Shown in pieces: positions 7,095 to 56,919 of a DNA stretch of 64,000 nt (position 1 is its first letter; every line of letters starts with the position of its first letter). The translations under genes and the position numbers were made by a program. Source of the stretch: Bdellovibrionota bacterium (GTDB lineage Bacteria; Bdellovibrionota_C; UBA2361; JBIKWN01); the NCBI GenBank assembly GCA_044356295.1, contig JBIKWN010000005.1, positions 7,176 through 71,175 on the forward strand. Reading direction: 5' to 3'. The notes beneath the pieces are model-generated. The model was not told the DNA's origin. It did not search any database and was given only the letters and a program-made list of their open reading frames with translations.

Positions 7095-7215
7095 ACTCGC
7101 TTTCGGCGGGTCAGTCCTGAGAGTGGATGTTGATTAATTTTTTTGCTCACGCCTACGCTCATGGTCAGGTTCACGGGGGGTTGTTCGTCAATTAACAAGT
7201 TTGATTAGGCTCTAC

Positions 7216-7232
7216 CTGGCATAACCCTTGCC
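7216..7232 (+). promoter_or_regulatory. Candidate sigma-54 (-24/-12) promoter upstream of motA
   Basis: cTGGCAT-AACCC-TTGCc at 7217-7231 matches TGGCAC-N5-TTGCW, with correct GG-to-GC spacing. Caveat: the first ATG of motA (7246) would leave almost no leader. Confidence 0.3.
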
Positions 7233-7245
7233 CTACTCTTTCACT

Positions 7246-8052
7246 ATGAACACAAAAGTACAAAATTTTGACACCAAATTTGCGTCCGAAGAGCGACCTT
7301 ATGACAGAGGTATTATTATAGGTGCTTCTATATCGTTTCTACTTATCGTGGTTGGACTTATTGCTGGTGGCAAGTTGTCAGCAGCCTTTAATCCGATGAG
7401 TTGGTTGATTGTTCTTGGTGGAACATTTGGAGCAACACTGGTTCAGTATTCTTGGTATGACATTAAGCATGGTTGGGATTGTTTCCGTAAAGCTTTAATG
7501 ACACTTGATTTACATCCTCGGGAAAGAATTTCGTACATTGTGAATTTATCACATGCAGTAAGACAAAACGGTTTACTAATCTTGGAAGATGAAGCGCATC
7601 GCACGTATGATCCATTTTTAAAGTTAGCTCTTGAACTGACAGTAGATGGACAACCAGCAGCTGATATTAAAAGAATTCTAGAAACCGAAATGAGAGCTTC
7701 GCAGGATAAAGCACATCGCGGTTCAAATATCTTTCAAACGATGGGGACGTATGCTCCGGCACTTGGATTGATAGGTACCATTATTGGAATGATGCAAATG
7801 CTTGGTGATATGCAAAATGCTTCAAATATAGGTCCAGCTATGGCAATTGCCCTTACGACAACGCTGTACGGAGCAATCCTTTCAAATCTACTTTTTCTTC
7901 CTATTGCAGGTAAATTAAGAAACCATATTGATGAAGAGCTATTAGTGAAAGCTATAACTATTGAAGGGATTCTTGCTGTTGGAAGACAGGAAAATGCCTC
8001 AATGGTAGAGCAGAAATTACAAGGCTTTTTACCCCTTATTCCTAGTGTTTAG
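7246..8052 (+). CDS. motA: Flagellar motor stator protein MotA (MotA/TolQ/ExbB proton-channel family)
   Basis: Four-TM layout, with the conserved C-terminal region GTYAPALGLIGTIIGMMQML...AIALTTTLYGAILSNLLFLPIAGKL. It sits in flagellar gene context. The track ORF starts at a TTG at 7228; the first ATG is at 7246. Confidence 0.75.
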   Translation: MNTKVQNFDTKFASEERPYDRGIIIGASISFLLIVVGLIAGGKLSAAFNPMSWLIVLGGTFGATLVQYSWYDIKHGWDCFRKALMTLDLHPRERISYIVNLSHAVRQNGLLILEDEAHRTYDPFLKLALELTVDGQPAADIKRILETEMRASQDKAHRGSNIFQTMGTYAPALGLIGTIIGMMQMLGDMQNASNIGPAMAIALTTTLYGAILSNLLFLPIAGKLRNHIDEELLVKAITIEGILAVGRQENASMVEQKLQGFLPLIPSV

Positions 8053-44938: not shown

Positions 44939-44972
44939 GATTGGTTTGTGATAGTGGTATGCTATTAAGTGA

Positions 44973-45059
44973 TTTTTTGTAACGCGAAGGTCGCGAAGTA
45001 CGCGAAGGAATTAAATGTAATCCTTCGCGTACTTCGCGACCTTCGCGTTACAAAAAAAA
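44973..45059. repeat. About 85-bp near-perfect palindromic repeat element, copy 1
   Basis: TTTTTT-gtaacgcgaaggtcgcgaagtacgcgaaggaatta-aatgt-aatccttcgcgtacttcgcgaccttcgcgttac-AAAAAAAA. The arms differ by a single unpaired base. It occupies the 120-bp gap between the convergent Snf2 gene and the CitE-like gene. Near-identical copies lie at 51463-51549 and 53714-53800. Confidence 0.9.
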
Positions 45060-45061
45060 TA

Positions 45062-46009
45062 CTACCCAACCCGCTTCAAAACATTCCAGTAATACCGAAA
45101 TGAAGCCCGATCATGAAGTCTATCTTTATAAGAAATAGGTGCCCATTGAGCATTCTTAGCAAGAGTGAGGATCTCTTTAGCAGTATCTACTTCCTCAGCG
45201 CTTGGAGACATTGCGTTTAGTATAGGTTGAATCTGATTTGGATGAATACTCCACATACGAAGGAATCCAAAATGATGTCTTGCTCGAAGTGCGTCATCAT
45301 ATGCAGAGTCTGGATTTTTATAATCTACGGTAACATTGTGAGCAGGGATAATATTATTTCCAAGGCACGCCGCAACAAGACGGCTTTTTGCCCTCATCAG
45401 GATTGGATGCTCGAACTGTTCAGGACTTTGAAAACATTTATCTGATAATGCACCGTGATGGAATGAAACAAAATCCATACAACCAAAATCTAAACCTCTA
45501 AGGAGCGGAAGCGAAGCAATCTGCCATACTTCTTCGACAGCTTTTGGTGTTTCGATAAGAAAATGAATCGGTGGAATTGATACTTTACTCGTATCGCATT
45601 CTTTTTTGTAAGTATCGATAACAGTATCAATAACTTTCTGTCCTTGTTCAAAAGACAAAATTTTTGGAATTGTAAGATGAGAGATAATACCAAAAAGATT
45701 TTTTGCTACAAAATTTAGGTCATCACTAAAATGAGAAGATAGGGGATCATGAATTCTAACCCCAATTTTTTTATAAACATTTTCAGAAGAAGAAATAATG
45801 TTTAAAAAAAGTTGTCTCAACGCAGTTTCTTGTCCTACTGAAGCTCCATCTTCAAGATCACAGGTAATATCGAAACTACCTTTGAAGATCTTTTGCGTTT
45901 CAATACTTTTTAAAATTAATTTTTCATGACCTGCATAATGATCACATGCAGAGCATGAAGGAAGTGGTTTTTCATTTGGAAAAAGTATTGAATCAAGATT
46001 TTCAAACAT
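45062..46009 (-). CDS. HpcH/HpaI aldolase / citrate lyase beta-subunit (CitE)-like protein
   Basis: The C-terminal FGFLRMWSIHPNQIQPI matches the CitE/malyl-CoA-lyase WxIHPxQ motif; the rest of the fold is not independently verified. Confidence 0.55.
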   Translation of the reverse strand: MFENLDSILFPNEKPLPSCSACDHYAGHEKLILKSIETQKIFKGSFDITCDLEDGASVGQETALRQLFLNIISSSENVYKKIGVRIHDPLSSHFSDDLNFVAKNLFGIISHLTIPKILSFEQGQKVIDTVIDTYKKECDTSKVSIPPIHFLIETPKAVEEVWQIASLPLLRGLDFGCMDFVSFHHGALSDKCFQSPEQFEHPILMRAKSRLVAACLGNNIIPAHNVTVDYKNPDSAYDDALRARHHFGFLRMWSIHPNQIQPILNAMSPSAEEVDTAKEILTLAKNAQWAPISYKDRLHDRASFRYYWNVLKRVG

Positions 46010-46025
46010 ATGTAGTAACTTACTG

Positions 46026-46463
46026 TTAACTGTGACGATAAATACTCAACGGATTAAAATTTTTATCGTGAGCTATTCGTAAAGAGCAAAGTTGTCCGAC
46101 GTGGTAGCTTTCGTGTAAGACAATATAATCTGACAACAGCTTTAAAGAATTGACGTTCTTTGATTCCAAAGCATTGGAAATCGTTTTGGATCTTTGGTGT
46201 TGATATTCTGTGAACAAGGATTGAAAAGTGCCTTGTTTGTTCAGATAACTTCCCCATTCGTGAGTTTCGGAATTTAACTGCTTCTCAATGGCTTCAAACA
46301 GCTCTAGGAAATGAGCCAAGGTGAGTCTAGGACTCATCAGGTCAGGCGAGAGGGTCGCTTCATAAAGATTTTCAGGCAGACCTTCAAAGACTTTTTCGAC
46401 CTGAAAACCAACTATTTCTAGCTGATATTGTATAAGTTCTATTGAGCCCATATGAGATGCCAA
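46026..46463 (-). CDS. DinB/YfiT-like hypothetical protein
   Basis: 145-aa helical protein with HxxxH/HESYHVGQ features like the DinB_2 family. This is a weak call. Confidence 0.35.
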   Translation of the reverse strand: MASHMGSIELIQYQLEIVGFQVEKVFEGLPENLYEATLSPDLMSPRLTLAHFLELFEAIEKQLNSETHEWGSYLNKQGTFQSLFTEYQHQRSKTISNALESKNVNSLKLLSDYIVLHESYHVGQLCSLRIAHDKNFNPLSIYRHS

Positions 46464-46552: not shown

Positions 46553-46629
<77 letters not shown>

Positions 46630-46692
46630 TTCGACATCGCCGCCATTAGCGGCTTGCTCATGGCAAGTCATTCTTCGGCGAGGAGAATGGCG

Positions 46693-46713
46693 CCCTGAGC
46701 CCTGAGCCCTGAG
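46693..46713. repeat. Tandem heptamer (CCCTGAG)x3 inside a GC-rich 110-nt patch immediately 3' of tRNA-Asp
   Basis: cgccctgagccctgagccctgagcg, followed by aagggagtcgaagggaggg (AAGGGAG x2). The local GC is far above the window average. Confidence 0.8.
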
Positions 46714-46863
46714 CGACCAAAGGGAGTCGAAGGGAGGGCTGGTTTCATGCTGTCAGCCATTTTGAATCAGCTCAGTATTATTTGTCTCCCGATACCAGAC
46801 ACAATCAAAACATATATTTGTTTACTATACTGAATTGTATTAGCCTATTTTAAGGCAGTCTCA

Positions 46864-47802
46864 GTGATAAAAGTAGTTGATAATAGTTGCGATCTTTCGG
46901 ATTTGTATGGTCCCGACATTGGTTTTGCATGTGCACATCCTGAAATGACAGGCCTTGTCCCATATCCTAGTAAAACTTCTGAAACATCTGAAAACCAACC
47001 TGGAATTCTTTTCGAACCAAAGATTGAAGTACGTCGCTGTTTAATGATAGGCGATTCATTTAACAGAATTGCTTCAGAACCTGGATGTATCGATAGATAT
47101 CTGCATCACCGGTTTCAGATTGAGGGAACAGACTTTGATCAATTAGCGTTAGCCCTTGCCGGTGATCATCAAAGATCTCCATTCAATAATAAGAATCTCG
47201 CTGAAATTATTTCGCCCTTATCTCAAATTTCTGCAGAGGGTCAGGGTTGGATAAAAAATCAAGCAGGGTTTCGAAATGCAGTAGGAAGATCTTACTGTGT
47301 TAAACAATTGAGTAAAGTATGTGGGGATTTAGATTCAGAAATTCAAGAATATTGTAATGCACTATCTACAGTTGCAAATGAAAATGATTTTTTAATGATT
47401 CTTATTGATGGATCAAGACTTTCAAATCAATCGCAAGCAGTAAATCCTCGGCCAATCAGAAACTATCAACAGTTGTTAGCAAATTTAAATGCAATTCCAG
47501 GATGGAAGTGTATTTTCGATCTGTCCCTAGAGTGTGGCAATTTAGCAAATGCTCACATGGAAGATATTGCAAAAAAATCAATCGAGATGGACCGCACTGC
47601 AGTGCTAACGAGTGTTGCCTATCAACAAGAGCCAACATCAATGCATACACAAACTATATGGGACTACCTTGTGAATACAATTTTATTTGGAAGGAGCCTA
47701 AAAGAGATTCGTTTAGCTCCATTAATTAGTGAAAATGCAGCCTCACCCAAAGCAGTGCCACTTATTCCACAGATACGTTCGAATTACTCTGTCGCGTTGT
47801 GA
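46864..47802 (+). CDS. Hypothetical protein (possible GDSx-type hydrolase)
   Basis: 312-aa ORF. The only motif-like feature is LMIGDSFNRIA (GDS-x block) near residue 60. The stop codon runs directly into a copy of the 22-bp motif. Confidence 0.4.
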   Translation: MIKVVDNSCDLSDLYGPDIGFACAHPEMTGLVPYPSKTSETSENQPGILFEPKIEVRRCLMIGDSFNRIASEPGCIDRYLHHRFQIEGTDFDQLALALAGDHQRSPFNNKNLAEIISPLSQISAEGQGWIKNQAGFRNAVGRSYCVKQLSKVCGDLDSEIQEYCNALSTVANENDFLMILIDGSRLSNQSQAVNPRPIRNYQQLLANLNAIPGWKCIFDLSLECGNLANAHMEDIAKKSIEMDRTAVLTSVAYQQEPTSMHTQTIWDYLVNTILFGRSLKEIRLAPLISENAASPKAVPLIPQIRSNYSVAL

Positions 47803-47897
47803 TAGGGGATGCTCACCTTTATTAATGCATTGAATTTGTTCAAATTTAATTTTAATTGTGCTTAAATTTAAAAATATATATATATATAATCATATAT

Positions 47898-48263
47898 ATG
47901 AATAACAATTTGAATATACTGAAAAAAATTGCTACGAAAAGTCTAAAAACTGAAAAAAGTAGAAAAATCCCTGTGTATCTTAAACTTGAGGAAGACGTAG
48001 TAAACTGGTTCAAGAATGAAGGTAAGGGGTATCAAGAAAGAATTAATTCGCTACTTAAGGATTATGTCAGCGAAGTAGTCATGGCAACTACGACAAAAGT
48101 TTCTAATGCACAGAACCTATTCGAAAAATATTATTCACAATGTTTCTGGCATTTGCGAAGAGATATCGTTATTAAAGAAGAGCATATTCCACTGATCATA
48201 GAAGGGCTTAAAAAACATGGTGGACAACAAGGTTATCTAGAGTCACAAATCTTATGCCAGTAA
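47898..48263 (+). CDS. BrnA-antitoxin-like (ribbon-helix-helix, DUF4415-type) domain protein with a 60-aa C-terminal extension
   Basis: KSRKIPVYLKLEEDVVNWFKNEGKGYQERINSLLKDYV matches the BrnA signature (...R-L/I-D-x-D-V-L-x-W-F-K...G-x-G-Y-Q-T-R-I-N-x-x-L-R-x-Y). The start is taken at the ATG at 47898, after an (AT)n tract; the track ORF begins at a TTG at 47856. Confidence 0.55.
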   Translation: MNNNLNILKKIATKSLKTEKSRKIPVYLKLEEDVVNWFKNEGKGYQERINSLLKDYVSEVVMATTTKVSNAQNLFEKYYSQCFWHLRRDIVIKEEHIPLIIEGLKKHGGQQGYLESQILCQ

Positions 48264-48660
48264 CAAAATTTCAAAAAAAATTCTTAAACTTTTGTCACAA
48301 AACCGAAGCCCCGATAGCTATGTTGCAGGGCTGCATGTGGTAAAGATCCAGGATTTACCCCTGAATTAATTCTTGATTGCATAAGCCGAAATGCTCGATT
48401 AACACCCGATATACTCGCTTTAGAAAATCTTACTTCAGCTATAGATCCAAAAAAAATTAAGATGCAATGGATGGAATCTTTTCAAAGAGCTCAATTAGAG
48501 ATTTCTAAATATCCCATTGATTCAATCGGATCACTTTTTCTCGATAAGCAAGGCAATACAGTTCATCGACCGAAAGATTTCTCAAATTTAATAGTTCATA
48601 AAGGTAGTGTAAGGGGTAGCTGGCCCTTTTCTGAGAGCGTGTAGGAGACGCTCACTATCA

Positions 48661-49824
48661 TCAGAGAGATCGAATTAATTTGAAAAATTCTTGGTATGGC
48701 AATATCTCTACATCATTTATTTTTCTTGATCTTTCAGCAGTACAAACACAGATTTTTTTCACTTTTTGGTTAATTAATCTAATAGCATTAAAACCAGCTT
48801 CATAATCAAGTTCAATCGGAGTATCTTTGGATTTTATTTCTACTGCAATCATTTCACCTGAAGGCGTTGTAATTATTAAATCAACTTCTACATCTGCCGC
48901 TGTTCTTAGAAATGAAAGTGAAAGATCTTTACGAAGATAGTGCGAAATTCTTACTACCTCATTGATAACCCATGTTTCAAAATAGTTACCATACTCGAAT
49001 GTTTGAGGGCGAATATCAGTATTGAGGCGTTTTTGAAGTGAACGAAGTACGCCAGTATCAAAAAAGTAAAATTTGGGAGAAGTTTTAAATTTCTTCCTTT
49101 CAGAATGATTCAAAGCAGGAAGGAATCTGCCTAAAAGTGTATCTTCAAGGATTTTAAAATATTCTTTAACCGTTACTGAAGAAAGAAGAACATCGCGGGC
49201 TATGTTAGAAAAATTTATTTGTTCGCCGTTACATTGTGCCGCAACTTCCAGAAATCTAATAAAGCCTCCTATATTTCTTGAAAGAGCTTCAGCTTCGATT
49301 TCTTGTTGAAGATACATTTGAGTATAGGCTCTTAGATTTTCTTTTGCAGAATCTTTATCAGTTAAAATATTTGCTGGAAGTGTTCCAGTAGAAAGAATTT
49401 GATTTAATGTAACTGGCTTTGGTACTTCTAAGAAGGTGAGGGGGAATAATTCAAAGCTCCAAGCCCTACCGCCAAGTAAATTGGCACGCCCTCTTTTTAA
49501 TTTTCTTGCACTTGAACCCGTTAGGATAAACTTTTGAGGAACTCCTTTATCAATTAAATACTGGACTTCATTTAATAGATCTGGAACCCGCTGCGCTTCA
49601 TCAATCAATACATGAGAGATTTTTTCAGATAAGGCCCAAACTTCCTCTCTTAAGCGGTCAGGTTTAGAGACAAACTGGGAATAGGTCTCAGTTTGAAGTA
49701 AATTAATTTCAGCAAGTTCTTCACTTTTAAAAGAATTTCTAATCAACGTAGTTTTTCCAGATTGTCTGGCTCCGAATAGGAAAAAACTGTTAGATTTTGG
49801 TATGTTAAGTTCTCTTTTAAGCAT
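48661..49824 (-). CDS. AAA-family ATPase of the COG1373/DUF4143 type
   Basis: Walker A GARQSGKTTLI near the N-terminus, Walker B LIDEAQRV, and a C-terminal DUF4143-like region. The gene is AT-rich (about 30-35% GC in sampled stretches). Confidence 0.7.
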   Translation of the reverse strand: MLKRELNIPKSNSFFLFGARQSGKTTLIRNSFKSEELAEINLLQTETYSQFVSKPDRLREEVWALSEKISHVLIDEAQRVPDLLNEVQYLIDKGVPQKFILTGSSARKLKRGRANLLGGRAWSFELFPLTFLEVPKPVTLNQILSTGTLPANILTDKDSAKENLRAYTQMYLQQEIEAEALSRNIGGFIRFLEVAAQCNGEQINFSNIARDVLLSSVTVKEYFKILEDTLLGRFLPALNHSERKKFKTSPKFYFFDTGVLRSLQKRLNTDIRPQTFEYGNYFETWVINEVVRISHYLRKDLSLSFLRTAADVEVDLIITTPSGEMIAVEIKSKDTPIELDYEAGFNAIRLINQKVKKICVCTAERSRKINDVEILPYQEFFKLIRSL

Positions 49825-49932
49825 GCTTTAAATATCCGTTGAATAATTAAAGCATACTTTTACTTAAAGACAAATCCCCAATCTAAGATATCAATCAGGT
49901 TGATGCATCAGTGTTTGCATAAGGAACAAACC

Positions 49933-51249
49933 ATGAAAGCTCGAATAGTCATCTGGCTTGGGTACGGTGATGAAGGGAAAGGGTCTTGGGTTGATTACTT
50001 GGTAAGAAAACACCAGGTCACTCAAGTTGTGCGATTCAATGGAGGTGCGCAAGCACTACACCATGTGGTGACGCTCGAGGGGCTTACCCACGGATTCGCA
50101 CAATTTTCCTCTGGTACTTTGGTGCCGGGGGTTAAGACCCTCCTTTCCAAATTCATGTTGATTGAGCCAGAGAGTTTTTTTGCAGAGGCAGAGATGCTTT
50201 CCGCAAAAGGAATCGCTGATGTTGTTGAAAGAGTTATTATCAGTGAGAAATCACCGGTGATCACTCCTTTCAACAGATTACTCAATCGAATCATGGAGCG
50301 CTTTCGTGGAATAGAACGCCATGGAAGTTGCGGATTTGGAATCGGACTTACTCAAGCAGATGTAGAGTCGCTCAAAGATCGAGCACTCTATGTCAAAGAT
50401 CTATCGTCATCTTCGACACTTCGGTCAAAGTTAAATGATCTGTGGAGTTTGAAATTAGATTTTGCTGATCGATTCAGAAATGAATCGACTGAAGATCTGT
50501 TTCATGCACTGCAGAACATTGACATTGAACGATATGTTGAACTGTTCACACGGTTCGCTGAAGCGGTAAACGTTGTCAGCGAAGAGGAATTTCAAAAACT
50601 GCTTCGTGAAAACGAATCAGTCTTTGAAGGTGCACAGGGTGTTATGCTCGACCAAACGTATGGAACATTTCCGTTCTGCACGAGGTCGAATACGACATTC
50701 GAAAATGCATTGATGCTTCTTCGTGAAGCTGGGTGGCAGGGTACTATTGAGAGAATTGGACTTTTGAGGGCGTATGGAACCAGGCACGGTGCTGGTCCAT
50801 TCCCAACAGAAGACTCTTCACTCAACGTAGTACCTTGTCTTAATCAACTCAATGAATGGCAGGGGCAGTTCCGAACAGGATGGTTTGATGCAGTGTTAGC
50901 GCGCTATGCACTTGAATGTGTAGGCGATGTTGATACGTTAGTCATCACCAACTTTGATCGAATTGTTTCAGAACAAACTCTCCAGATCGCAGTTCGATAT
51001 GGCAGAGTGAGTGATAGTCGTTTCTTTCGTGACGGACAGATGATTCCTTTTACGGGGGGTCTTCAAGAACTTGCGGAACGAACGACAATGCTAGCCGAAG
51101 TGGAACCTGACTATCTTGATGGTGGAGTCTATTCGCAAAACGATCCTGATTCGGTAAATCGATATCTGAAGCTCCTTGAAAAGAGTATCGGACGTCGAAT
51201 TAACACTGTGTCATCAAGTATCGATTGCAAAAAGATAGAGTTCGATTGA
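49933..51249 (+). CDS. Divergent adenylosuccinate synthetase (PurA)-family protein
   Basis: P-loop GYGDEGKGS (canonical QWGDEGKGK); [14 protein letters not shown] against PurA [39 protein letters not shown] against [41 protein letters not shown] against [23 protein letters not shown] against RRTGWLD. GC is about 50% in sampled stretches, against about 40% for the neighbouring genes. The start is taken at 49933 (AAGGAA ribosome-binding site 7 nt upstream). Confidence 0.65.
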   Translation: [438 protein letters not shown]

Positions 51250-51462
51250 TGAGATCAATTTGGCTTTATTCTTTGTATTCTTCATCAAAAAGGGAGGGGT
51301 TCTTAGCGACGGTTCTTCATTTGAGTTTATGGGATGCACTCGAGATTACTGCAAAGGTTTAAAAGTCAAAGCAGCTCTCAAAGCATCCCCTACCTTTCAG
51401 GGGACGCTCACCATAACTTATTAAAATTTCATCACCGCGGTCTGGTAGGAGTTTAACTATTA

Positions 51463-51549
51463 TTTTTTTTTGTAACGCGAAGGACACGAAGTACGCGAAG
51501 GAATTAATTTAATCCTTCGCGTACTTCGCGACCTTCGCGTTACAAAAAA
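51463..51549. repeat. About 85-bp palindromic repeat element, copy 2
   Basis: TTTTTTTTT-gtaacgcgaaggacacgaagtacgcgaaggaattaa-ttt-aatccttcgcgtacttcgcgaccttcgcgttac-AAAAAA. It carries the same two left-arm mismatches as copy 3. Confidence 0.9.
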
Positions 51550-51605
51550 TATCTTCAATTACTTTCTACCGAGCAATAGTGACCTTTAGGGGACAGTGAC
51601 CTTTA

Positions 51606-51696
51606 GGGGACGCTCACCTTTATAAGCCACTGTAATCACTTGGTAGGAATAAATTATCTCTAAAGATTTCAAACAGTTATAAAGGTGAGCGTCCCC
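51606..51696. repeat. Inverted pair of the 20-bp motif GGGGACGCTCACCTTTATAA separated by 51 bp
   Basis: ggggacgctcacctttataa at 51606-51625 and its exact reverse complement ttataaaggtgagcgtcccc at 51677-51696. A tandem partial copy (gtgacctttaggggaca) lies immediately upstream, at 51579-51595. Confidence 0.85.
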
Positions 51697-51706
51697 AAGA
51701 TTCTGA

Positions 51707-51734
51707 TTAACTTTTTGGGCTAAGTAGTCGATCT
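51707..51734 (+). promoter_or_regulatory. Candidate sigma-28 (FliA)-type promoter for the flagellin gene
   Basis: TTAACTTTT-N11-GTCGATCT against the consensus TAAAGTTT-N11-GCCGATAA. It lies about 95 nt upstream of the flagellin ATG and immediately after the inverted-repeat element. Confidence 0.35.
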
Positions 51735-51828
51735 TACGTGTGATGAGAACCCTTTAAGGGGGATCTTGCGCCTGTGGCGTATTTAAAGAGTGTGTGTGTA
51801 AAAAATGCAAAAGGAATTGCAAACATAA

Positions 51829-53685
51829 ATGCCAATCACGATCGCTAGCAACATAGCGTCGCTTGGTGCGCAACGACAACTTGGAAAAGTTTCCGAGTCG
51901 TTAGGTAGTACCTACGAGAGGCTCTCATCAGGAATGAGAATTAATAAAGCATCAGATGATGCTGCAGGGCTCGCAATTGCTTTAAGTCTGAATTCAGATA
52001 CAAGAGTATTTACTCAAGCGGTAAGAAACTTAAATGATGGTATATCGTATCTATCAATCGCTTCTGGAGCACTTGATGCCCTTTCAACTATAGTCATTAG
52101 GCAGAAAGAATTAGCAGAGCAATCTGCAAATGGAACTGTTGGCCTCACGCAACGAAAAAGTATTCAACAAGAGTCAGATGCATTAACAAGAGAATATGCT
52201 CGTATTACTGCAACTGCTACGTTTAATAATCGAAAAATATACGAAGATAATTCCAATAACTTACTATCGTTACAAACAGCCTATAGTGCGATTACATATA
52301 ATCTTGGGCAGTCTCTTGCTGATTATCGTGGTGATGGGACTTTCTCGAGTGGGACAACTGTGGATAGTGCTACATTTTTGGGGCAAGTAGTAATTGCGGA
52401 CCTCAATAATGATGGGAAACAAGATATTATACAGGTCAGAGGTACTGGTGGAAATTTAAGGTATCAACTCGGAAATGGTGATGGAACTTTCCAAAGTGTC
52501 ATTCAGCTTAGCACTGGAAATAGTCCAATTTCAGTATTAGTTGATGATTATAATAAAGATGGTTTCAAAGATTTTGCGATAGTAAATTCACAAGGTAATC
52601 TGCGTGTTGCTTTACAAAATAGCAATGGAACTTTTGGAACTTTTGTTACTTATCAAGGTCCACTTGGAGCAAACACCATGCAGTTAACATCTGGTGATTT
52701 TGATGGTGATGGTATTACTGATCTTTTTTATCAACACGGAAGTTTTACAAGTTGGGTCTTAAGAGGAAATAGTGATGGTAGCTTTCAAGCCCCAGTGACT
52801 GCAGCTAGCACCCTTTTTAATAGTACCGTAAAAGTTGCTGATTTTAATAACGATGGAAAATCTGATTTAGTTTCGATTACATCTGGAACACTAAGAACAT
52901 TTACTTCGAATGGTGATGGCACATTCGCAGTAGGCGCAACAATCTTCTCTGGAATTACCGGTTCAGTTACAGCAGATGTAGGTGATTTTAACCGAGATGG
53001 AATTCAAGATATTGTTTATTCAGATACCACATCTGGGAGGGTATATCTTGCCATTGGTAATGCAAATGGAACTTTTCAAGCTTCTATATCATTCACATCT
53101 TCAGGTGCAAACCCAGGCTCCATAACGACTGGGGATTATAATGGAGATGGATTAGCAGACATAAGTTATCTCACAACTGGTTCAACATCGTTAAGTATTC
53201 GTTTAGGTAATGGTGACGGTAGTTTTCGGGCAGAGACATCATCAGCAATAAGTACTAATGGATCATTTGCTTTTGGGGATGTAAATAATGATGGCTCTGT
53301 TGATCTTGTTTCAGTGAGATCCGATTCCAATTCTAGTGCTCTGTATCTGCAAGGCACACGAACAGAATTTCAAGCAGACTATTTATATCTTTTAGACCAA
53401 AAGAGTGCCCGAAATGCCATCGATCAACTTGAAACAATTTTTAATAAAATTTCTCAAGAACGTTCAATAGTCGGTGCTTCTCTTTCTAGAATTTCAGTCG
53501 GTATACAGACGCTGTCGGATGCAGCGCTACAGTATAAAGCTGCTGAATCAAGGATAAGAGATATTGATGTTGCAGAAGAATCATCAGAACTTACGAAACA
53601 ATCAATTCGCCAACAAGTTGCTGCTTCGATTCTTGGACAAGCTAATCAGCAGCCATCTTTGGCGCTTAGCCTCTTACGATCTTAA
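51829..53685 (+). CDS. Flagellin with a seven-repeat FG-GAP (integrin-alpha-like beta-propeller) insertion in the variable central region
   Basis: The N-terminal D0/D1 region MPITIASNIASLGAQRQLGKVSESLGSTYERLSSGMRINKASDDAAGLAIA... and the C-terminal D1/D0 region ...LSRISVGIQTLSDAALQYKAAESRIRDIDVAEESSELTKQSIRQQVAASILGQANQQPSLALSLL are classical flagellin. Between them are seven D-x-N-x-DG-x-x-D repeats (ADLNNDGKQD, DDYNKDGFKD, SGDFDGDGITD, ADFNNDGKSD, GDFNRDGIQD, GDYNGDGLAD, GDVNNDGSVD), each followed by Gly/Thr/Phe-rich strands. Confidence 0.8.
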   Translation: MPITIASNIASLGAQRQLGKVSESLGSTYERLSSGMRINKASDDAAGLAIALSLNSDTRVFTQAVRNLNDGISYLSIASGALDALSTIVIRQKELAEQSANGTVGLTQRKSIQQESDALTREYARITATATFNNRKIYEDNSNNLLSLQTAYSAITYNLGQSLADYRGDGTFSSGTTVDSATFLGQVVIADLNNDGKQDIIQVRGTGGNLRYQLGNGDGTFQSVIQLSTGNSPISVLVDDYNKDGFKDFAIVNSQGNLRVALQNSNGTFGTFVTYQGPLGANTMQLTSGDFDGDGITDLFYQHGSFTSWVLRGNSDGSFQAPVTAASTLFNSTVKVADFNNDGKSDLVSITSGTLRTFTSNGDGTFAVGATIFSGITGSVTADVGDFNRDGIQDIVYSDTTSGRVYLAIGNANGTFQASISFTSSGANPGSITTGDYNGDGLADISYLTTGSTSLSIRLGNGDGSFRAETSSAISTNGSFAFGDVNNDGSVDLVSVRSDSNSSALYLQGTRTEFQADYLYLLDQKSARNAIDQLETIFNKISQERSIVGASLSRISVGIQTLSDAALQYKAAESRIRDIDVAEESSELTKQSIRQQVAASILGQANQQPSLALSLLRS

Positions 53686-53713
53686 GGGGGACGCTCAGAT
53701 TTTATAACTTTTA

Positions 53714-53800
53714 TTTTTTTTTGTAACGCGAAGGACACGAAGTACGCGAAGGAATTAATTTAATCCTTCGCGTACTTCGCGACCTTCACGTTACAAAAAA
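53714..53800. repeat. About 85-bp palindromic repeat element, copy 3
   Basis: TTTTTTTTT-gtaacgcgaaggacacgaagtacgcgaaggaattaa-ttt-aatccttcgcgtacttcgcgaccttcacgttac-AAAAAA, followed by tatcttcaattatttc as in copy 2. Confidence 0.9.
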
Positions 53801-53840
53801 TATCTTCAATTATTTCTAGCATCAATCAGCCAAATATGTT

Positions 53841-55862
53841 TTACCCGGTAAAAGTATAAACAATTTCAAGTGACATCGGATCTAAAAGAGCCCTCATCCA
53901 ATCGGGTTGTTTCTCAATCTGCATATTTAAATAATCGATAGATTCTTTCTTGGCCGGTAGTCCTTTGCGCAATCTATATCTCTGTTCCGCGGCTAACGGC
54001 TTATTACCATCAACCAGTACATTTGACAGAGTTCTTCGAAACTGTGAAACCATGTCACTAGTACACCATGCTTGACCATGTGGTAAAAATATTGAGGCTG
54101 CTGCTGGTTCGAAGCAAGCTTCGGATAATAAAATTTTTAGTTGAGATATTTCAAAAAGATTTAAATGAGATTCCCCCAGTATTGGACCATGTAAGACTCC
54201 TGATTTATGAAATAGATCGTATGTTAGTATTTCGAAAATCTTTTTAATTTTTCTTGGATCTATATTGCTGGATTCATCTGTGTTACGTTGCATAGCAATT
54301 CCTAAAGCTATCACCAGTAATCTACGATGAGCAGAAAGTGTTATCTCACTGTCTTGAATAAGGCGTTTATACCAACTGGTATTATGAAAGAAACACGAGG
54401 GGTCTAGTTTTTCGATAACATTTGAAGATAGATCGCCTAATTGTACATACTTTTCAATCAGCTTGCGTGCATGTCGAAACCCTAAATCTCCTTTACTACG
54501 ATTTACAATTTGATCTGCGGCAAATGGTGAAACGTCAAATAAACTTTGTGCATATTGTAAAGGAGTAGGTGGGTTATCCTTATACTCGACAGCAGACATT
54601 ATAGTTAGTGTACTTACCCGTTGGCCAAGTTCAAGATTTGAATCTGAAGCAATATCTGGTGGAAGAAAACATAGTAAGCTTTCTGAAATATTTTGACTAA
54701 CGACACCAAGTTTAGATATACAAAATTGTGTTGATTGTAGTTTGCCTTGAACAGATATATGGCTTGAGCCAAGCAAGATACTTTCGGCGTGCTTAATAGT
54801 TTTCAAACCAAAAAGTCGAAGTATAATCTCAGTATCTTTGAATCCACAAAATTCCTGGATTTCTTTTCTGAAAAGCGCGCATGCACTTCTTCTTGCCCGA
54901 GAAAGAGCCAGGCGTTTAGGATCTAAATATAATTTCTCACTAGGATTTGGATTAAGTAATACGACCATTTTGTGAGCAAATGGATGAAATGCTACTTGGT
55001 TTAAATACCTTTCGAGACGGCTGGGGCTTAAGCTTTTGTGACCATAGATTATATCTCGTGCTGAACCAAATGTTAATTCAAAGCGAAGTGCAACTTCTCG
55101 AATTGCTGAGGCAAGCTTTGGGGCATTATTACCATTAAAATGTCTATAAACTTCGAATGCAAATTCTTTCCTTAGCTCAACAATATCAGAAGGTAATTGC
55201 GAGGTAGAGTATTTTTTTGGTGATGATGGTTTGGTAGGAAAGGTTTGAGGAATGCTTTGTGAGAAAATTTTAGCAAAGGTGTATCGAGCTTCCTTATCGC
55301 TACTCTCCAGCAGTTGAAGCGATAAATTAGTTTCAAACAGATCAATTACCTCTTCACTTGAACGACTGTTACTTATACGACGACGAACTCTTGAAAGACG
55401 TGATTTATATTGAGTTAGATTTATATTTAAATGAAATGCTCCTTCTTCATCCGAAAAACCAATAATATCTAGAAAAAGAACATTTTGATCGAGCGGGTTA
55501 TGTATCCCAAGTGAGGCTAAAGTTTCACGTACAAGAGCATAATGTTCTCTGTTAAAATCAAAATTAGAAGTAGATGCATGTTTGGAACTAATTGGTTCGA
55601 TTGAATCCGGAGCATCCAACTCGATTGCATGTCGTGTTCTTTTTCTCTTTTCCCCCCTATGTTTATCAATCCCAATACTTTGGAAAGTACGAATCACTAA
55701 ACCAGTTGCTGAGCCACCATCTTTAACTTCATGCCCATTGAGCTTAAGCCACGCTTCACCTAAAGCATCCTCAGCATCTCGTAAGGGTACACCCGCCCTT
55801 ATTAAAGATTGGATACGCTTATTTCCTGAACGGAGTAACTCTTCGGCGATATCTTCTTGCAT
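53841..55862 (-). CDS. Large hypothetical protein (673 aa) with a weak sigma-70 region-2-like N-terminus
   Basis: Long ORF. The N-terminal LIRAGVPLRDAEDALGEAWLKL loosely resembles the ECF-sigma region 2 pattern (AEDLxQExFLK). The remainder is unrecognised. Confidence 0.4.
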   Translation of the reverse strand: MQEDIAEELLRSGNKRIQSLIRAGVPLRDAEDALGEAWLKLNGHEVKDGGSATGLVIRTFQSIGIDKHRGEKRKRTRHAIELDAPDSIEPISSKHASTSNFDFNREHYALVRETLASLGIHNPLDQNVLFLDIIGFSDEEGAFHLNINLTQYKSRLSRVRRRISNSRSSEEVIDLFETNLSLQLLESSDKEARYTFAKIFSQSIPQTFPTKPSSPKKYSTSQLPSDIVELRKEFAFEVYRHFNGNNAPKLASAIREVALRFELTFGSARDIIYGHKSLSPSRLERYLNQVAFHPFAHKMVVLLNPNPSEKLYLDPKRLALSRARRSACALFRKEIQEFCGFKDTEIILRLFGLKTIKHAESILLGSSHISVQGKLQSTQFCISKLGVVSQNISESLLCFLPPDIASDSNLELGQRVSTLTIMSAVEYKDNPPTPLQYAQSLFDVSPFAADQIVNRSKGDLGFRHARKLIEKYVQLGDLSSNVIEKLDPSCFFHNTSWYKRLIQDSEITLSAHRRLLVIALGIAMQRNTDESSNIDPRKIKKIFEILTYDLFHKSGVLHGPILGESHLNLFEISQLKILLSEACFEPAAASIFLPHGQAWCTSDMVSQFRRTLSNVLVDGNKPLAAEQRYRLRKGLPAKKESIDYLNMQIEKQPDWMRALLDPMSLEIVYTFTG

Positions 55863-56013
55863 TCAAAAAACTAAGTAAAAATACGTTAATTGATAGAGAG
55901 ATTTATATCAGAAGAATTATCCTTAACATAAAAAAAGAGAAAAAAATTGATTTATCACCAATTATCTTTGCGCTTTTGCTTGAGTAAGACTCAATGTACT
56001 CTATCTAGAAATC

Positions 56014-56919
56014 ATGGCCCAATCACTCAGTCTTATCCCACAGCTCCTCATCAATGGCCTTATTACAGGTAGTATCTATGCTTTAGCAGCTGCTGGTTTG
56101 ACGCTGACTTATGTCTCGTTTCGAGTGCTCAATTTTGCACACGGAGCATTAGTCATGATTGGAGCATATTTATTTTATGCAGTTTTTATTCTTCGAGACG
56201 TAACATCACTTCTGCCCATAGTTCTTTTTCTACTCATAAGTGGTTTTATACTGTCTAGGTTTATTGATAGATGTTTTATAGCCCCATTTTCCAAAGTTCA
56301 TCCGATTCTTCCTTTTGTTTCAACACTTGCATTGGCGATATTAACTGAAGCAAGTGTTTCAATGATTTTTGGAGTCAATGTTCTTTCTCTTTCTACAGAG
56401 ATGAGTGATCTGATAGTTCTTCCTTTAGATCTCTCACTCACTGTTATGCAAGGATACTTTGTTGTTGTGAGTTTAATGACTCTTTGTGCTTTAGCACTCT
56501 ACTTAAACAAAAGTCTCTTTGGAAAACAGTTACTTGCACTTGCAGAATCACCAACGTATTTAGCTTCACTTGGTATATCTATTGACAACCGTCGAAGCGT
56601 TACTTTTTTTCTCGCTGTTGTTTTAGCATTTTTTGCCGGAATATTTTTAGGATTCGAAACAAATCTGCAACCAATGATGGGAAGCTCCATTATGATTAAA
56701 GCATTTGCCGCAATGGTATTGGGCGGTATGACTTCCCTGAGTGGAGCAATATTTGGAGCGTATCTCTTAGCAATTATTGAATCGTTAATGATCGGGTTAG
56801 ATTTCGGAGCATTCTCGGTGCCTGCAAGTTACAGAGACAGTATATCGTTGGTCTTTGTTATGTTTATTTTGTTAGTAAGACCACAGGGATTATTCTCAAA
56901 AAGGGGACGTGCTGCCTAA
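56014..56919 (+). CDS. livH: ABC transporter permease, branched-chain amino acid (LivH/HAAT) family
   Basis: Polytopic membrane protein with LivH-like N-terminal ...LINGLITGSIYALAAAGLTLTYVSFRVLNFAHG. Confidence 0.75.
   Translation: MAQSLSLIPQLLINGLITGSIYALAAAGLTLTYVSFRVLNFAHGALVMIGAYLFYAVFILRDVTSLLPIVLFLLISGFILSRFIDRCFIAPFSKVHPILPFVSTLALAILTEASVSMIFGVNVLSLSTEMSDLIVLPLDLSLTVMQGYFVVVSLMTLCALALYLNKSLFGKQLLALAESPTYLASLGISIDNRRSVTFFLAVVLAFFAGIFLGFETNLQPMMGSSIMIKAFAAMVLGGMTSLSGAIFGAYLLAIIESLMIGLDFGAFSVPASYRDSISLVFVMFILLVRPQGLFSKRGRAA

What the first reader, a model, noticed from the sequence alone, without database searches (positions are those of the whole stretch)
48661..51249. Divergent PurA (adenylosuccinate synthetase) homolog, GC-rich, divergently paired with a DUF4143 AAA ATPase
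The 438-aa protein keeps the PurA catalytic framework: GDEGKG P-loop, GGxxAxH, FEGAQG...SSNTT, [10 protein letters not shown] and RTGW. It diverges at positions that are normally invariant (QWGDEGKGK becomes GYGDEGKGS) and carries extra insertions. It sits in a repeat-rich island rather than a purine-biosynthesis context, and its GC content is clearly above that of its neighbours, which suggests horizontal origin. PurA-fold enzymes recruited to non-housekeeping roles are established: phage PurZ makes the 2-aminoadenine precursor. This copy could therefore be a nucleotide- or metabolite-modifying enzyme in a defence, counter-defence or secondary-metabolite role. The AAA ATPase (Walker A and B, DUF4143) is transcribed divergently from a shared 108-bp intergenic region and may be functionally linked to it.
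Basis: partly seen in the sequence, partly recalled or inferred. Interest (0 to 1): 0.75.

Follow-up and report, generated by a model that had tools for sequence, protein, structure and literature searches.

The report
Orphan non-canonical PurA-like ligase gene
This gene encodes an intact adenylosuccinate-synthetase-fold enzyme from an uncharacterised accessory branch that has lost the aspartate-binding site; elsewhere, including in Bxz1-type mycobacteriophages, it sits beside a vWA protein and a kinase-like protein, but here it arrived alone by horizontal transfer and its ATPase neighbour is unrelated.

Summary
A 438-aa PF00709 protein (49933-51249, +) lies 108 bp from a divergently transcribed AAA_14/DUF4143 ATPase (48661-49824, -). 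Its GC and GC3 are about 3 sd or more above the other ORFs measured.

It is neither housekeeping PurA nor PurZ. It belongs to a well-separated clade (100/100 bootstraps against 16 canonical PurAs) that scores half the NCBIfam purA cut-offs. The clade keeps the GTP-dependent 6-oxopurine activation residues (D13, K16, H41, Q224, D333, S414). The aspartate site is rebuilt almost invariantly (T300W, T301Q, R303 deleted, R305F), and so are the IMP-phosphate contacts (N38Q, T129C, R143 lost).

In 9/9 long contigs and 43/48 metagenome loci the gene directly follows a vWA protein. A kinase-like protein lacking the catalytic Asp is usually present too. NrtR and NAD-salvage genes are often nearby. About 200 Bixzunavirus mycobacteriophages carry the same module.

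None of 95 related loci has the DUF4143 ATPase, which matches PADLOC candidate PDC-S01. The window lacks the partners. The gene lies in a variable segment that is absent at this position in the two relatives compared.

The most likely chemistry is GTP-driven amination of an IMP-like substrate with a nucleophile other than aspartate. That chemistry is inferred, not shown.

The parts
49933..51249 (+). PurA-like ORF (438 aa) of the non-canonical 'WQG-x-FR' clade. It is intact and typical of its clade.
   Evidence: PF00709 at 222 bits but below the purA equivalog cut-offs. AF2 pLDDT 95.4, TM 0.82 to E. coli PurA. Deviates at 1 of 86 clade-conserved columns, G8W. Carries the clade-typical substitutions, including N38Q, T129C, V273H, T300W, T301Q, R303 deleted, R305F and K331N. 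GC3 0.387 against 0.266.
49825..49932 (.). 108-bp intergenic spacer between the divergent genes. AAGGA ribosome-binding site at 49921-49925.
   Evidence: Sequence read. No sigma-70-like consensus was found in it by the simple scan.
48661..49824 (-). AAA_14 + DUF4143 ATPase (387 aa). A neighbour, not a conserved partner.
   Evidence: Pfam hits. PADLOC PDC-S01 at 192 bits. Absent from all 95 related loci. The same pair at 100% identity is seen only in L001, i.e. the same organism.
47803..56013 (.). Variable segment holding a BrnA-like ORF, the ATPase, the PurA-like gene, an FG-GAP flagellin and a 673-aa ORF. It lies between a conserved 312-aa ORF and the BCAA-ABC/LeuRS block.
   Evidence: L194 (88% LeuRS identity) has only an Aminotran_4 gene between homologs of 46864-47802 and 56014-56919. 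L195 (77%) has an RND efflux operon there.
46553..46629 (+). tRNA-Asp(GTC) just upstream of the variable segment.
   Evidence: ARAGORN and Rfam. No att-like repeat of its 3' end was found.
51454..51564 (.). Palindromic REP/MITE-like element directly downstream of the PurA-like gene. Other copies at 44967-45060 and 53705-53815.
   Evidence: 6 arms found, 0 expected in shuffles.
51829..53685 (+). Flagellin with an FG-GAP repeat insert. It lies next to, or near, the PurA-like gene in two relatives as well.
   Evidence: Pfam. Homologs 38-40% identical lie downstream of the PurA-like gene in L083 and L084.

Best explanation
The ORF at 49933-51249 is an intact member of an uncharacterised accessory branch of the adenylosuccinate-synthetase superfamily. 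It is neither the housekeeping PurA nor PurZ.

Shown:
- The branch keeps the residues that in PurA bind GTP and transfer its gamma-phosphate to the 6-oxo group of IMP: the P-loop, Asp13, Lys16, His41, Gln224, and guanine-specific Asp333 and Ser414.
- The aspartate pocket is replaced by a nearly invariant W-Q-G-x-F-R loop, with Arg303 deleted and Arg305 changed to Phe.
- Three IMP 5'-phosphate or ribose contacts are changed.

Inferred: the enzyme still makes a 6-phosphoryl-purine intermediate from GTP, but resolves it with a nucleophile other than L-aspartate. That could be ammonia, a neutral or hydrophobic amine, or a protein amino group. The substrate is an IMP-like molecule whose phosphate end is held differently.

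Shown: in almost all other genomes the gene is the last in a same-strand module with a vWA protein and usually a kinase-fold protein that lacks the catalytic HRD aspartate. The module occurs in Bixzunavirus mycobacteriophages, in predicted viral contigs, and in Bdellovibrionota, Patescibacteria and other cellular genomes. It is often next to NrtR and NAD-salvage genes.

Inferred: the module therefore acts in nucleotide or NAD-linked salvage or conflict, not in core purine synthesis.

In this window the gene was acquired horizontally, without its partners, into a variable segment near tRNA-Asp. The divergent DUF4143 ATPase is an independent neighbour and a candidate stand-alone defence gene.
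For: Family and fold: PF00709 full length. AF2 pLDDT 95.4. Foldseek TM 0.82-0.83 to E. coli PurA against 0.58-0.64 to PurZ.

Not canonical:
- NCBIfam NF002223 197 bits against cut-off 402, and TIGR00184 173 against 395.55.
- 25-30% identity to canonical PurAs, which share 41-73% among themselves.
- NJ tree: the non-canonical group is monophyletic in 100/100 bootstraps, and the cellular clade including the window in 82/100.

Active site, 120 clade members against E. coli plus 7 canonical PurAs:
- Invariant or nearly so: G12, D13, K16, H41, Q224, D333 (120/120), T239 and S414 (119/120).
- Changed: N38Q 120/120, T128S 120/120, T129C 113/120, R143 not conserved, V273H 120/120, T300W 120/120, T301Q 120/120, R303 deleted 120/120, R305F 118/120, K331N 116/120.

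Intactness: the window protein differs at 1 of 86 columns that are at least 95% conserved in the clade.

Conserved partners:
- A-B-C-D cluster in 8 of 9 long contigs, and B-C-D with only a short A-like remnant in the ninth, L085.
- C immediately upstream in 43/48 metagenome loci, and B in 22/26.
- At least 34 contigs hold both D and C hits.
- B lacks the HRD Asp in 11/11 sequences.

Phage: Rizal gp250, gp251 and gp253 are homologs of B, C and D (E-values 8e-35, 5e-47, 1e-76). About 203 C1 mycobacteriophages carry the gene.

NAD link: NrtR in 9 loci, NMNAT/NADK-like in 7, PncA-like in 5, NadE in 3, and a pyruvate-kinase-like gene in 12 loci, lying between C and D in L091.

Horizontal arrival: GC3 z-score about 3.7. 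LeuRS has relatives at 77-88% identity, but the PurA-like protein has none above 55%. The segment is absent at this position in L194 and L195.

ATPase unlinked: 0/95 co-occurrence, and a PDC-S01 match.
Against: - No biochemical datum exists for any clade member. The substrate, the nucleophile and even GTP use are inferred from residue conservation.
- Residue roles (Arg303, Thr301, Arg305 for aspartate; Asn38, Thr129, Arg143 for the IMP phosphate) rest on my knowledge of the E. coli literature and on the PDB mutant-complex titles 1CG3 and 1CG4. They were not tested by docking here.
- I could not check whether the source genome, or the relatives' genomes, also carry a canonical purA. Only the 64-kb window was searched.
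- The clade occurs in reduced genomes (Patescibacteria, Nanoarchaeia), where it could in principle be the only PurA-type enzyme.
- Without its usual partners, the window copy may be inactive or may work differently. It also has a unique G8W change beside the P-loop.
- NAD-gene adjacency was seen in roughly 17 of about 95 loci, many of them short, so the NAD link is suggestive only.
Confidence: 0.6

Rival explanations
1. It is simply the organism's housekeeping adenylosuccinate synthetase: a fast-evolving PurA that still condenses IMP with L-aspartate.
For: Full-length PF00709 match with all catalytic residues kept. Public sources name homologs 'adenylosuccinate synthase'. No other purA lies in the 64-kb window. 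Clade members occur in small genomes that may lack other PurA genes.
Against: - Arg303 is deleted, and Arg305, Thr300 and Thr301 are replaced in 118-120 of 120 members.
- The protein scores half the equivalog cut-offs.
- The same module sits in lytic mycobacteriophages whose host has its own purine pathway.
- GC3 is an outlier.
- Relatives with 77-88% identical LeuRS lack the gene at this locus, and no ortholog above 55% identity exists in 5.8 billion proteins.
- No purine gene lies nearby in the 9 long contigs inspected.
Confidence: 0.1
2. The PurA-like gene and the divergent DUF4143 ATPase form a two-gene defence or counter-defence system.
For: The genes are divergent across a shared 108-bp spacer. 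The ATPase matches a PADLOC candidate defence family. The pair recurs at 100% identity in a second metagenome sample, L001.
Against: There are 0 ATPase homologs beside the PurA-like gene in 95 related loci. L001 is the same sequence, so it is not independent. PDC-S01 is catalogued as a single-gene candidate. The PurA-like protein has no PADLOC match. The two genes differ in GC3, 0.219 against 0.387, which suggests separate origins.
Confidence: 0.03
3. It is a PurZ-type enzyme that makes the 2-aminoadenine (dZ) precursor or another modified deoxynucleotide.
For: It is a PurA-fold enzyme outside purine operons with phage relatives. RefSeq labels the Bixzunavirus homolog '2-aminooxy adenylosuccinate synthetase'.
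Against: - PurZ has catalytic Asp replaced by Ser in 147/147 phage sequences (PMC12884076). This clade keeps Asp in 120/120, and so does Rizal gp253.
- NCBIfam PurZ model: 40 bits against a cut-off of 300.
- The clade profile scores 22-37 bits on PurZ structures against 219 on PurA.
- The protein is 438 aa, against the 363-367-aa short type.
- PurZ still uses aspartate (PDB 6TNH), whereas the aspartate site here is gone.
- No HD or MazG phosphohydrolase or PolA was seen among the neighbours scanned.
Confidence: 0.02
4. The window copy is a stranded, functionless remnant of the vWA/kinase-like/PurA-like module, on its way to decay.
For: The partners A, B and C are absent from the whole window, and no remnants were found. 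Only about 10% of loci lack C. A unique G8W substitution sits next to the P-loop. No promoter-like site was found in the spacer.
Against: The reading frame is complete with a good ribosome-binding site. 85 of 86 clade-conserved columns are retained, which is the clade median. AF2 confidence is very high. The partners could be encoded elsewhere in the genome.
Confidence: 0.15

Closest known systems
Bixzunavirus (cluster C1 mycobacteriophage: Bxz1, Rizal, I3) 'PurA-like adenylosuccinate synthetase' with its neighbouring 'kinase' and gp251
   Same: Same non-canonical branch: monophyletic with the window protein in 100/100 bootstraps and 35% identical. It has the same signature residues: N38Q, T128S/T129C, V273H, W-Q-G-x-F-R, and Asp13 kept. 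The same kinase-like and vWA genes lie upstream, as in the cellular modules.
   Different: The phage vWA protein lacks the DUF2135-like beta-sandwich insert. The phage clade is sister to the cellular clade, not nested in it. The window copy has neither partner. The function of the phage gene is also unknown; it is noted only as a C1-specific 'interesting feature' (PMC2771037, PMC9476963).
Canonical adenylosuccinate synthetase PurA (EC 6.3.4.4; TIGR00184 / NF002223; PDB 1CG0-type E. coli enzyme)
   Same: Same fold and length class (TM 0.82). Same P-loop, Asp13, Lys16, His41, Gln224, Thr239, Asp333 and Ser414. It therefore probably performs the same first half-reaction, GTP-dependent phosphorylation of a 6-oxopurine.
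   Different: The aspartate-binding residues are gone (T300W, T301Q, R303 deleted, R305F) and the IMP-phosphate contacts are changed (N38Q, T129C, R143 lost). It is below the equivalog cut-offs. Its genomic context is accessory and mobile, not purine metabolism.
PurZ / PurZ0 (succino-2-amino-deoxyadenylate synthase of dZ-genome phages; PDB 6FM1, 7ODX, 7VF6)
   Same: A PurA-superfamily enzyme recruited by phages to a non-housekeeping nucleotide role.
   Different: PurZ derives from the short archaeal-type enzyme, has Asp13-to-Ser, uses dGMP and still uses aspartate. The present clade is long-type, keeps Asp13 and has lost the aspartate site.
TerY-type vWA plus Ser/Thr kinase (plus PP2C) signalling triads, and vWA-containing NTP-dependent conflict systems (PMC7159879)
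   Same: A cytoplasmic vWA protein with a DxTxS MIDAS-like motif is paired with a protein-kinase-fold protein, and a PP2C gene is nearby in L091.
   Different: Here the kinase-fold protein lacks the catalytic aspartate, and the third conserved component is a PurA-fold ligase. I found no such combination described in the searchable literature. The resemblance rests partly on my recollection of the Ter-system literature and was not tested.
PADLOC PDC-S01 (candidate single-gene phage-defence ATPase, AAA_14 + DUF4143)
   Same: The neighbouring ATPase at 48661-49824 matches the PDC-S01 models at 192 and 164 bits over nearly full length.
   Different: This applies only to the neighbour, not to the PurA-like gene. 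A defence role is a candidate status in PADLOC and is unverified.

Membership tests
Canonical PurA (adenylosuccinate synthetase, TIGR00184 / NF002223) | Full-length Adenylsucc_synt (PF00709) domain and PurA fold | tested here: met
   PF00709 at 222 bits over residues 6-431. AF2 model TM 0.82-0.83 to E. coli PurA.
Canonical PurA (adenylosuccinate synthetase, TIGR00184 / NF002223) | Score above the curated equivalog cut-off | tested here: not met
   NF002223: 197.1 bits against 402. TIGR00184: 172.6 against 395.55. NF010355: 149.3 against 445.
Canonical PurA (adenylosuccinate synthetase, TIGR00184 / NF002223) | Catalytic and GTP residues: Asp13, Lys16, His41, Gln224, Asp333, Ser414 | tested here: met
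   All are present in the window protein. D13, K16, H41, Q224 and D333 are kept in 120/120 clade members and S414 in 119/120. However, K18S and K331N differ.
Canonical PurA (adenylosuccinate synthetase, TIGR00184 / NF002223) | L-aspartate-binding loop: Thr300, Thr301, Arg303, Arg305 | tested here: not met
   W, Q, a deletion and F respectively, in 118-120 of 120 clade members and in the window protein. All 8 canonical sequences keep T301, R303 and R305.
Canonical PurA (adenylosuccinate synthetase, TIGR00184 / NF002223) | IMP 5'-phosphate contacts: Asn38, Thr129, Arg143 (from the partner subunit) | tested here: not met
   N38Q in 120/120, T129C in 113/120, and R143 replaced by E/D/K/A (D in the window protein).
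Canonical PurA (adenylosuccinate synthetase, TIGR00184 / NF002223) | Enzyme activity IMP + Asp + GTP, or complementation of a purA mutant | not testable with these tools
   Needs biochemistry or genetics.
Canonical PurA (adenylosuccinate synthetase, TIGR00184 / NF002223) | It is the only PurA-type gene of the genome | not testable with these tools
   Only the 64-kb window could be searched, and it holds no second purA.
PurZ / PurZ0 | Catalytic Asp13 replaced by Ser (PMC12884076) | tested here: not met
   Asp is retained in the window protein, in 120/120 clade members and in Rizal gp253.
PurZ / PurZ0 | Sequence and fold closest to the short PurZ-type enzymes; NCBIfam NF038379 above cut-off | tested here: not met
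   NF038379: 40 bits against 300. The clade profile scores 22-37 bits on 6FM1, 7ODX and 7VF6 against 219 on E. coli PurA. TM 0.58-0.64.
PurZ / PurZ0 | Companion dATP/dGTP phosphohydrolases (DatZ, MazZ, DutZ) and DpoZ nearby | tested here: not met
   No HD, MazG, dUTPase or PolA domains were found among the 29 window ORFs scanned between 25 and 62.6 kb.
Non-canonical 'WQG-x-FR' PurA-like clade (cellular members plus Bixzunavirus gp253-type) | Clade signature residues and monophyly | tested here: met
   85 of 86 conserved columns are kept, and all 15 signature columns are present. Monophyly is 100/100 bootstraps with the phage members and 82/100 for the cellular subclade.
Non-canonical 'WQG-x-FR' PurA-like clade (cellular members plus Bixzunavirus gp253-type) | vWA-protein gene immediately upstream on the same strand | tested here: not met
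   It is absent from the whole window (tblastn). It is present in 9/9 long contigs, 43/48 metagenome loci, 4/5 viral contigs and phage Rizal.
Non-canonical 'WQG-x-FR' PurA-like clade (cellular members plus Bixzunavirus gp253-type) | Kinase-fold (HRD-less) gene in the module | tested here: not met
   It is absent from the window. It is present in 9/9 long contigs, 22/26 metagenome loci and phage Rizal.
   0 of 95 related loci. The only repeat, L001, is 100% identical DNA.
PADLOC PDC-S01 (for the ATPase neighbour) | Match to the PDC-S01 HMMs over most of the protein | tested here: met
   PDLC04790 at 191.8 bits and PDLC04789 at 163.5 bits over residues 8-335. A defence function itself is not testable here.

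The most novel reading that the evidence does not exclude
The clade is a new enzyme class within the PurA fold: a GTP-driven 'IMP aminase'. It would either make AMP in one step from ammonia, or attach another amine or a protein amino group to purine C6. It would work in a complex with a vWA protein and a pseudokinase. The three-gene module, shared by Bxz1-type mycobacteriophages, predatory Bdellovibrionota and host-dependent Patescibacteria/DPANN, and placed beside an NrtR-family regulator gene in 9 loci, would be a nucleotide or NAD-pool rescue or signalling device used in host-parasite conflict.
Probability: 0.25. Interest if true: 0.8.

Novelty: new variant of a known kind. Interest (0 to 1): 0.6.

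Why it matters
If the inference holds, one of the best-studied purine enzymes has a widespread sister branch with different chemistry. That branch is currently annotated everywhere as 'adenylosuccinate synthase', and in RefSeq phage records as the PurZ-type '2-aminooxy adenylosuccinate synthetase'.

The branch is tied to a vWA protein and a catalytically degenerate kinase. It is present in about 200 sequenced, cultivable mycobacteriophages and in many uncultured predatory or host-dependent microbes, often next to NAD-salvage genes. This gives a tractable experimental handle, Bxz1/Rizal on M. smegmatis, on an unknown nucleotide-metabolic or conflict module.

It also warns that metabolic reconstructions of reduced genomes may wrongly credit them with IMP-to-AMP conversion.

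For this particular window the result is more modest. The gene is a partner-less, horizontally acquired copy, and the proposed ATPase partnership is not real.

Tried and rejected
- The genome-contig scan with the single protein was swamped by canonical PurAs through the shared FEGAQG motif. I therefore could not look for a second purA in the relatives' genomes.
- I used identical 'longest contig' lengths as a proxy for co-occurrence of the PurA-like (D) and vWA (C) proteins. The same trick could not be applied to canonical purA, because only the top 120 hits are listed.
- tblastn for remnants of the partner genes A, B and C in 44-52 kb, at E-values up to 5, found only noise.
- No att-like repeat of the tRNA-Asp 3' end was found, so a classical tRNA-integrated island is not shown.
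- The promoter scan of the 108-bp spacer found nothing. The scan is crude, and Bdellovibrionota promoters may differ.
- Literature searches for PurA-like or paralog terms, adenylosuccinate + vWA, and NrtR + adenylosuccinate found no description of the module.
- I considered a decaying pseudogene and kept it only as a minor rival, because 85/86 conserved positions are intact.
- I considered PurZ and rejected it on the Asp13 criterion.


Full report
**1. What is in the window**

Two ORFs fit the finding.
- A 387-aa ORF lies on the minus strand at 48661-49824.
- A plus-strand ORF ends at 51249. Its ATG at 49933 gives 438 aa. That start has an AAGGA 7 nt upstream and matches the N-termini of homologs.
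- The spacer between them is 108 bp.

Pfam gives a full-length Adenylsucc_synt match (PF00709, 222 bits) for the plus-strand protein. It gives AAA_14 + DUF4143 for the other.

The compositional claim holds and extends to synonymous sites. GC is 0.449 and GC3 is 0.387. The 32 other window ORFs average 0.377 +/- 0.024 and 0.266 +/- 0.033.

The region is repeat-rich.
- An 84-111 nt palindromic element occurs three times, at 44967-45060, 51454-51564 and 53705-53815, and nowhere else in the 64 kb.
- A 16-nt repeat occurs five times in the same intergenic regions.

**2. The host and the local setting**

The window is chromosomal. It carries LeuRS, GreA, RibD, AroB/AroD, a NadB-like flavoprotein and a BCAA ABC transporter. 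The named LeuRS relatives are Oligoflexia and Bdellovibrionota MAGs at 64-67% identity. Unnamed relatives reach 88%, 80% and 77%.

Contigs from the 88% and 77% relatives keep the BCAA-transporter/LeuRS block. They do not keep the segment 47.8-56.0 kb.
- The 88% relative has a homolog of window ORF 46864-47802, then an aminotransferase, then the transporter.
- The 77% relative has an RND efflux operon at that position.

The segment absent from both holds the BrnA-like ORF, the ATPase, the PurA-like gene, the FG-GAP flagellin and a 673-aa ORF. It is therefore variable. A tRNA-Asp gene lies just upstream at 46553-46629, but no att-type repeat was found.

LeuRS has close relatives, yet the PurA-like protein has no homolog above 55% identity among 5.8 billion proteins apart from its own cluster. 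Together with the GC3 anomaly, this points to horizontal acquisition.

**3. It is not canonical PurA**

- The protein scores 197 and 173 bits on the NCBIfam purA equivalogs, whose cut-offs are 402 and 395.
- It is 25-30% identical to eight canonical PurAs from different phyla. Those share 41-73% with each other.
- In an NJ tree (41 sequences, 407 columns), all non-canonical sequences separate from 16 canonical PurAs in 100 of 100 bootstraps. The window protein nests in the cellular subclade, which has 82/100 support.
- The AF2 model is very confident (pLDDT 95.4). It superposes on E. coli PurA at TM 0.82 and on PurZ at 0.58-0.64.

**4. The active site**

I aligned 120 clade members with E. coli PurA (fetched from NC_000913) and seven other canonical enzymes.

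Kept, invariant or nearly so (119-120/120):
- G12, D13, K16 and H41
- Q224 and T239
- D333 and S414

These residues carry out GTP binding and phosphoryl transfer to O6 of IMP in PurA. That statement rests on my knowledge of the E. coli enzyme. It is consistent with the PDB titles of the K16Q, R143L and R303L complexes with 6-phosphoryl-IMP.

Changed, and changed in the same way across the clade:

| Region | Substitutions |
|---|---|
| Aspartate loop | T300W, T301Q, R303 deleted (each 120/120); R305F (118/120) |
| IMP-phosphate and ribose contacts | N38Q (120/120); T128S (120/120); T129C (113/120); R143 not conserved; V273H (120/120) |
| Other | K18S, Q34N, T42H, S240R, K331N, V334R |

Such uniform replacement indicates a different, selected specificity rather than decay. 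The window protein deviates at only one of 86 columns that are at least 95% conserved in the clade (G8W). That equals the clade median, so it looks intact.

**5. It is not PurZ**

- A 2026 survey reports that the catalytic Asp is replaced by Ser in all 147 phage PurZ/PurZ0 sequences (PMC12884076). This clade keeps Asp.
- The NCBIfam PurZ model scores 40 bits against a cut-off of 300.
- The clade profile scores 219 bits on E. coli PurA and 22-37 bits on PurZ structures.
- PurZ still binds aspartate (PDB 6TNH title).

**6. The real conserved partners**

In nine of nine relatives on long contigs, the PurA-like gene (D) closes a same-strand cluster. These relatives are 42-54% identical, and their loci range from 0.33 to 0.59 GC. 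The cluster order is:
- A: about 400 aa, function unknown. Full-length in eight of the nine; L085 has only a short A-like remnant.
- B: about 375 aa, weak Pkinase match.
- C: about 480 aa, no Pfam match.
- D: the PurA-like gene.

B has a protein-kinase fold, but its catalytic loop reads VHGxIxP(D/E)x. The HRD aspartate is missing in 11 of 11 sequences, and the DFG aspartate is mostly missing. It is probably a pseudokinase or an atypical kinase.

Wider counts support the linkage.
- At least 34 contigs hold both a D hit and a C hit.
- A DNA motif for W-Q-G-x-F-R-x-G-W-F-D recovered 96 metagenome stretches, of which 80 loci were analysed.
- C lies directly upstream in 43 of 48 evaluable loci, B in 22 of 26, and A in only 3 of 12.
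- The same motif hit five IMG/VR contigs. Four of them have a shorter vWA-only C.

**7. A phage connection**

The best hits in the GenBank phage set are about 203 cluster C1 mycobacteriophages (Bixzunavirus: Bxz1, Rizal, I3, Cali and others). They are 35% identical and annotated 'PurA-like adenylosuccinate synthetase'.

In Rizal, the relevant genes match the cellular module.

| Rizal gene | Matches | E-value |
|---|---|---|
| gp250 ('kinase') | B | 8e-35 |
| gp251 | C | 5e-47 |
| gp253 | D | 1e-76 |

gp253 carries the clade signature, including the retained Asp13.

The literature I could search mentions this gene only as a curiosity of the Bxz1 group, and as a C1-specific pham alongside a Ser/Thr kinase (PMC2771037, PMC9476963). 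I found no functional study and no description of the three-gene module.

**8. The NAD-linked neighbourhood**

The following genes lie beside the module in relatives.

| Neighbour | Loci |
|---|---|
| NrtR-type regulator (NUDIX + WHD_NrtR) | 9 |
| NMNAT/NAD-kinase-like | 7 |
| Isochorismatase (PncA-like) | 5 |
| NadE | 3 |
| PRK-family kinase | 5 |
| 321-aa pyruvate-kinase-like gene (between C and D in L091) | 12 |

A pyruvate-kinase-like enzyme could regenerate GTP from GDP. This would fit a GTP-consuming D, but it is speculation. In all, about 17 of about 95 loci, many of them short, show at least one NAD gene. The link is suggestive, not proven.

**9. The ATPase**

No related locus has a DUF4143 ATPase next to D, 0 of 95. 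The only recurrence, L001, is the same DNA at 100% identity.

The ATPase matches PADLOC's single-gene candidate PDC-S01 at 192 bits. D, A and C have no PADLOC match. The ATPase GC3 is 0.219 against 0.387 for D. The simplest reading is two unrelated cargo genes side by side in a variable segment.

**10. Mechanism**

- Shown: the fold, the retained activation machinery, the rebuilt nucleophile pocket, the conserved vWA and kinase-like partners, the presence in phages, and the absence of the partners here.
- Inferred: D forms a 6-phosphoryl intermediate from GTP and an IMP-like substrate, then resolves it with a nucleophile other than aspartate.
- Precedent: from my recollection of the classical enzymology, canonical PurA can accept hydroxylamine in place of aspartate. 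Attack by small amines on the intermediate is therefore chemically plausible.

The nucleophile could be ammonia (a one-step AMP synthase that needs no PurB), another amine, or a protein amino group. The roles of the vWA protein and the pseudokinase are also open. These questions cannot be decided with these tools.

The window copy, lacking B and C, may act alone, may use partners encoded elsewhere, or may be inert.

**11. Verdict**

It is wrong on the partner and on the PurZ analogy.

The instance in this window is a stranded member of a larger uncharacterised module. That module, rather than this locus, is what deserves experimental attention.

Noticed in passing
window 44967-45060, 51454-51564, 53705-53815: Three copies of an 84-111 nt near-perfect palindromic element with core GTAACGCGAAGG(T/A)C(G/A)CGAAGTACGCGAAGG on both arms. 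They lie after the SNF2 helicase, the PurA-like gene and the flagellin gene, and nowhere else in the 64 kb. The element looks like a REP/MITE-type repeat or a shared bidirectional terminator.
   Followed up: partly
window 47805, 51400, 51606, 51681(-), 53687: A short dispersed repeat, GGGGACGCTCACCTTT (5 hits, 0.01 expected), sits in intergenic DNA of the same segment. It includes a perfect 20-nt inverted pair at 51606-51625 and 51677-51696.
   Followed up: partly
window 46553-46629 and 46690-46720: tRNA-Asp(GTC) is the only RNA gene in the window. It is followed by a GC-rich tract (0.54 GC) with CCCTGAG repeats. It sits at the upstream edge of the variable segment, but no att-like repeat was found.
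   Followed up: partly
window 51829-53685; L083 14061-15920; L084 11799-13688: This is a 618-aa flagellin whose central domain is made of seven FG-GAP repeats. Homologs (38-40% identity) lie next to or near the PurA-like gene in two distant relatives. In the window the gene is bracketed by two 97%-identical copies of the palindromic element.
   Followed up: partly
window 42218-44938: A 906-aa SNF2-family helicase has a roughly 400-aa N-terminal region of unknown function. It matches PADLOC DpdE and ZorD models (about 157 bits). More distant SNF2 proteins (28% identity) lie just downstream of LeuRS in relatives L194 and L195.
   Followed up: no
window 47856-48263 and 48462-48644: An ORF with a BrnA-antitoxin domain (residues 29-71) has no recognisable BrnT toxin beside it. 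A 60-aa ORF follows it. The TTG start of the first ORF, in an AT-rich palindrome, is doubtful.
   Followed up: no
L097 (Mycobacterium phage Rizal NC_011272) 5989-7317 and other RefSeq Bixzunavirus records: RefSeq names the phage PurA-like protein '2-aminooxy adenylosuccinate synthetase', the PurZ-type label. The protein keeps the catalytic Asp (GYGDAGKGT) that PurZ replaces with Ser, and it lacks the aspartate-binding arginines. The label looks like a misannotation.
   Followed up: partly
L082-L087, L089-L091, L093, L097 (alignment A5): The kinase-like partner has VHGxIxP(D/E)x in place of HRDLKPxN in all 11 sequences, and mostly lacks the DFG aspartate. It keeps the VAIK-like Lys/Arg, the alphaC Glu and the APE motif. 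It is a predicted pseudokinase.
   Followed up: partly
L091 9034-9999 and 11 further metagenome loci (L099, L115, L127, L128, L133, L140, L148, L162, L164, L172, L175): A truncated pyruvate-kinase-like gene (321 aa, PF00224) lies between the vWA gene and the PurA-like gene in L091. tblastn finds homologs in 11 further loci, often with a PRK-family kinase and an NMNAT/NAD-kinase-like fusion nearby.
   Followed up: partly
L096 20-1675 (IMG/VR contig of 297,749 bp): An RtcB RNA ligase interrupted by an intein (Hint + LAGLIDADG) lies directly upstream of a vWA and PurA-like pair in a predicted giant viral contig.
   Followed up: no
window 45062-46009 and 46026-46463: An HpcH/HpaI (citrate-lyase beta-like) aldolase homolog and a 145-aa ORF with no family match lie between the first palindromic element and tRNA-Asp. 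The 145-aa ORF has a GC3 of 0.384, the only other GC3 outlier in the window.
   Followed up: no
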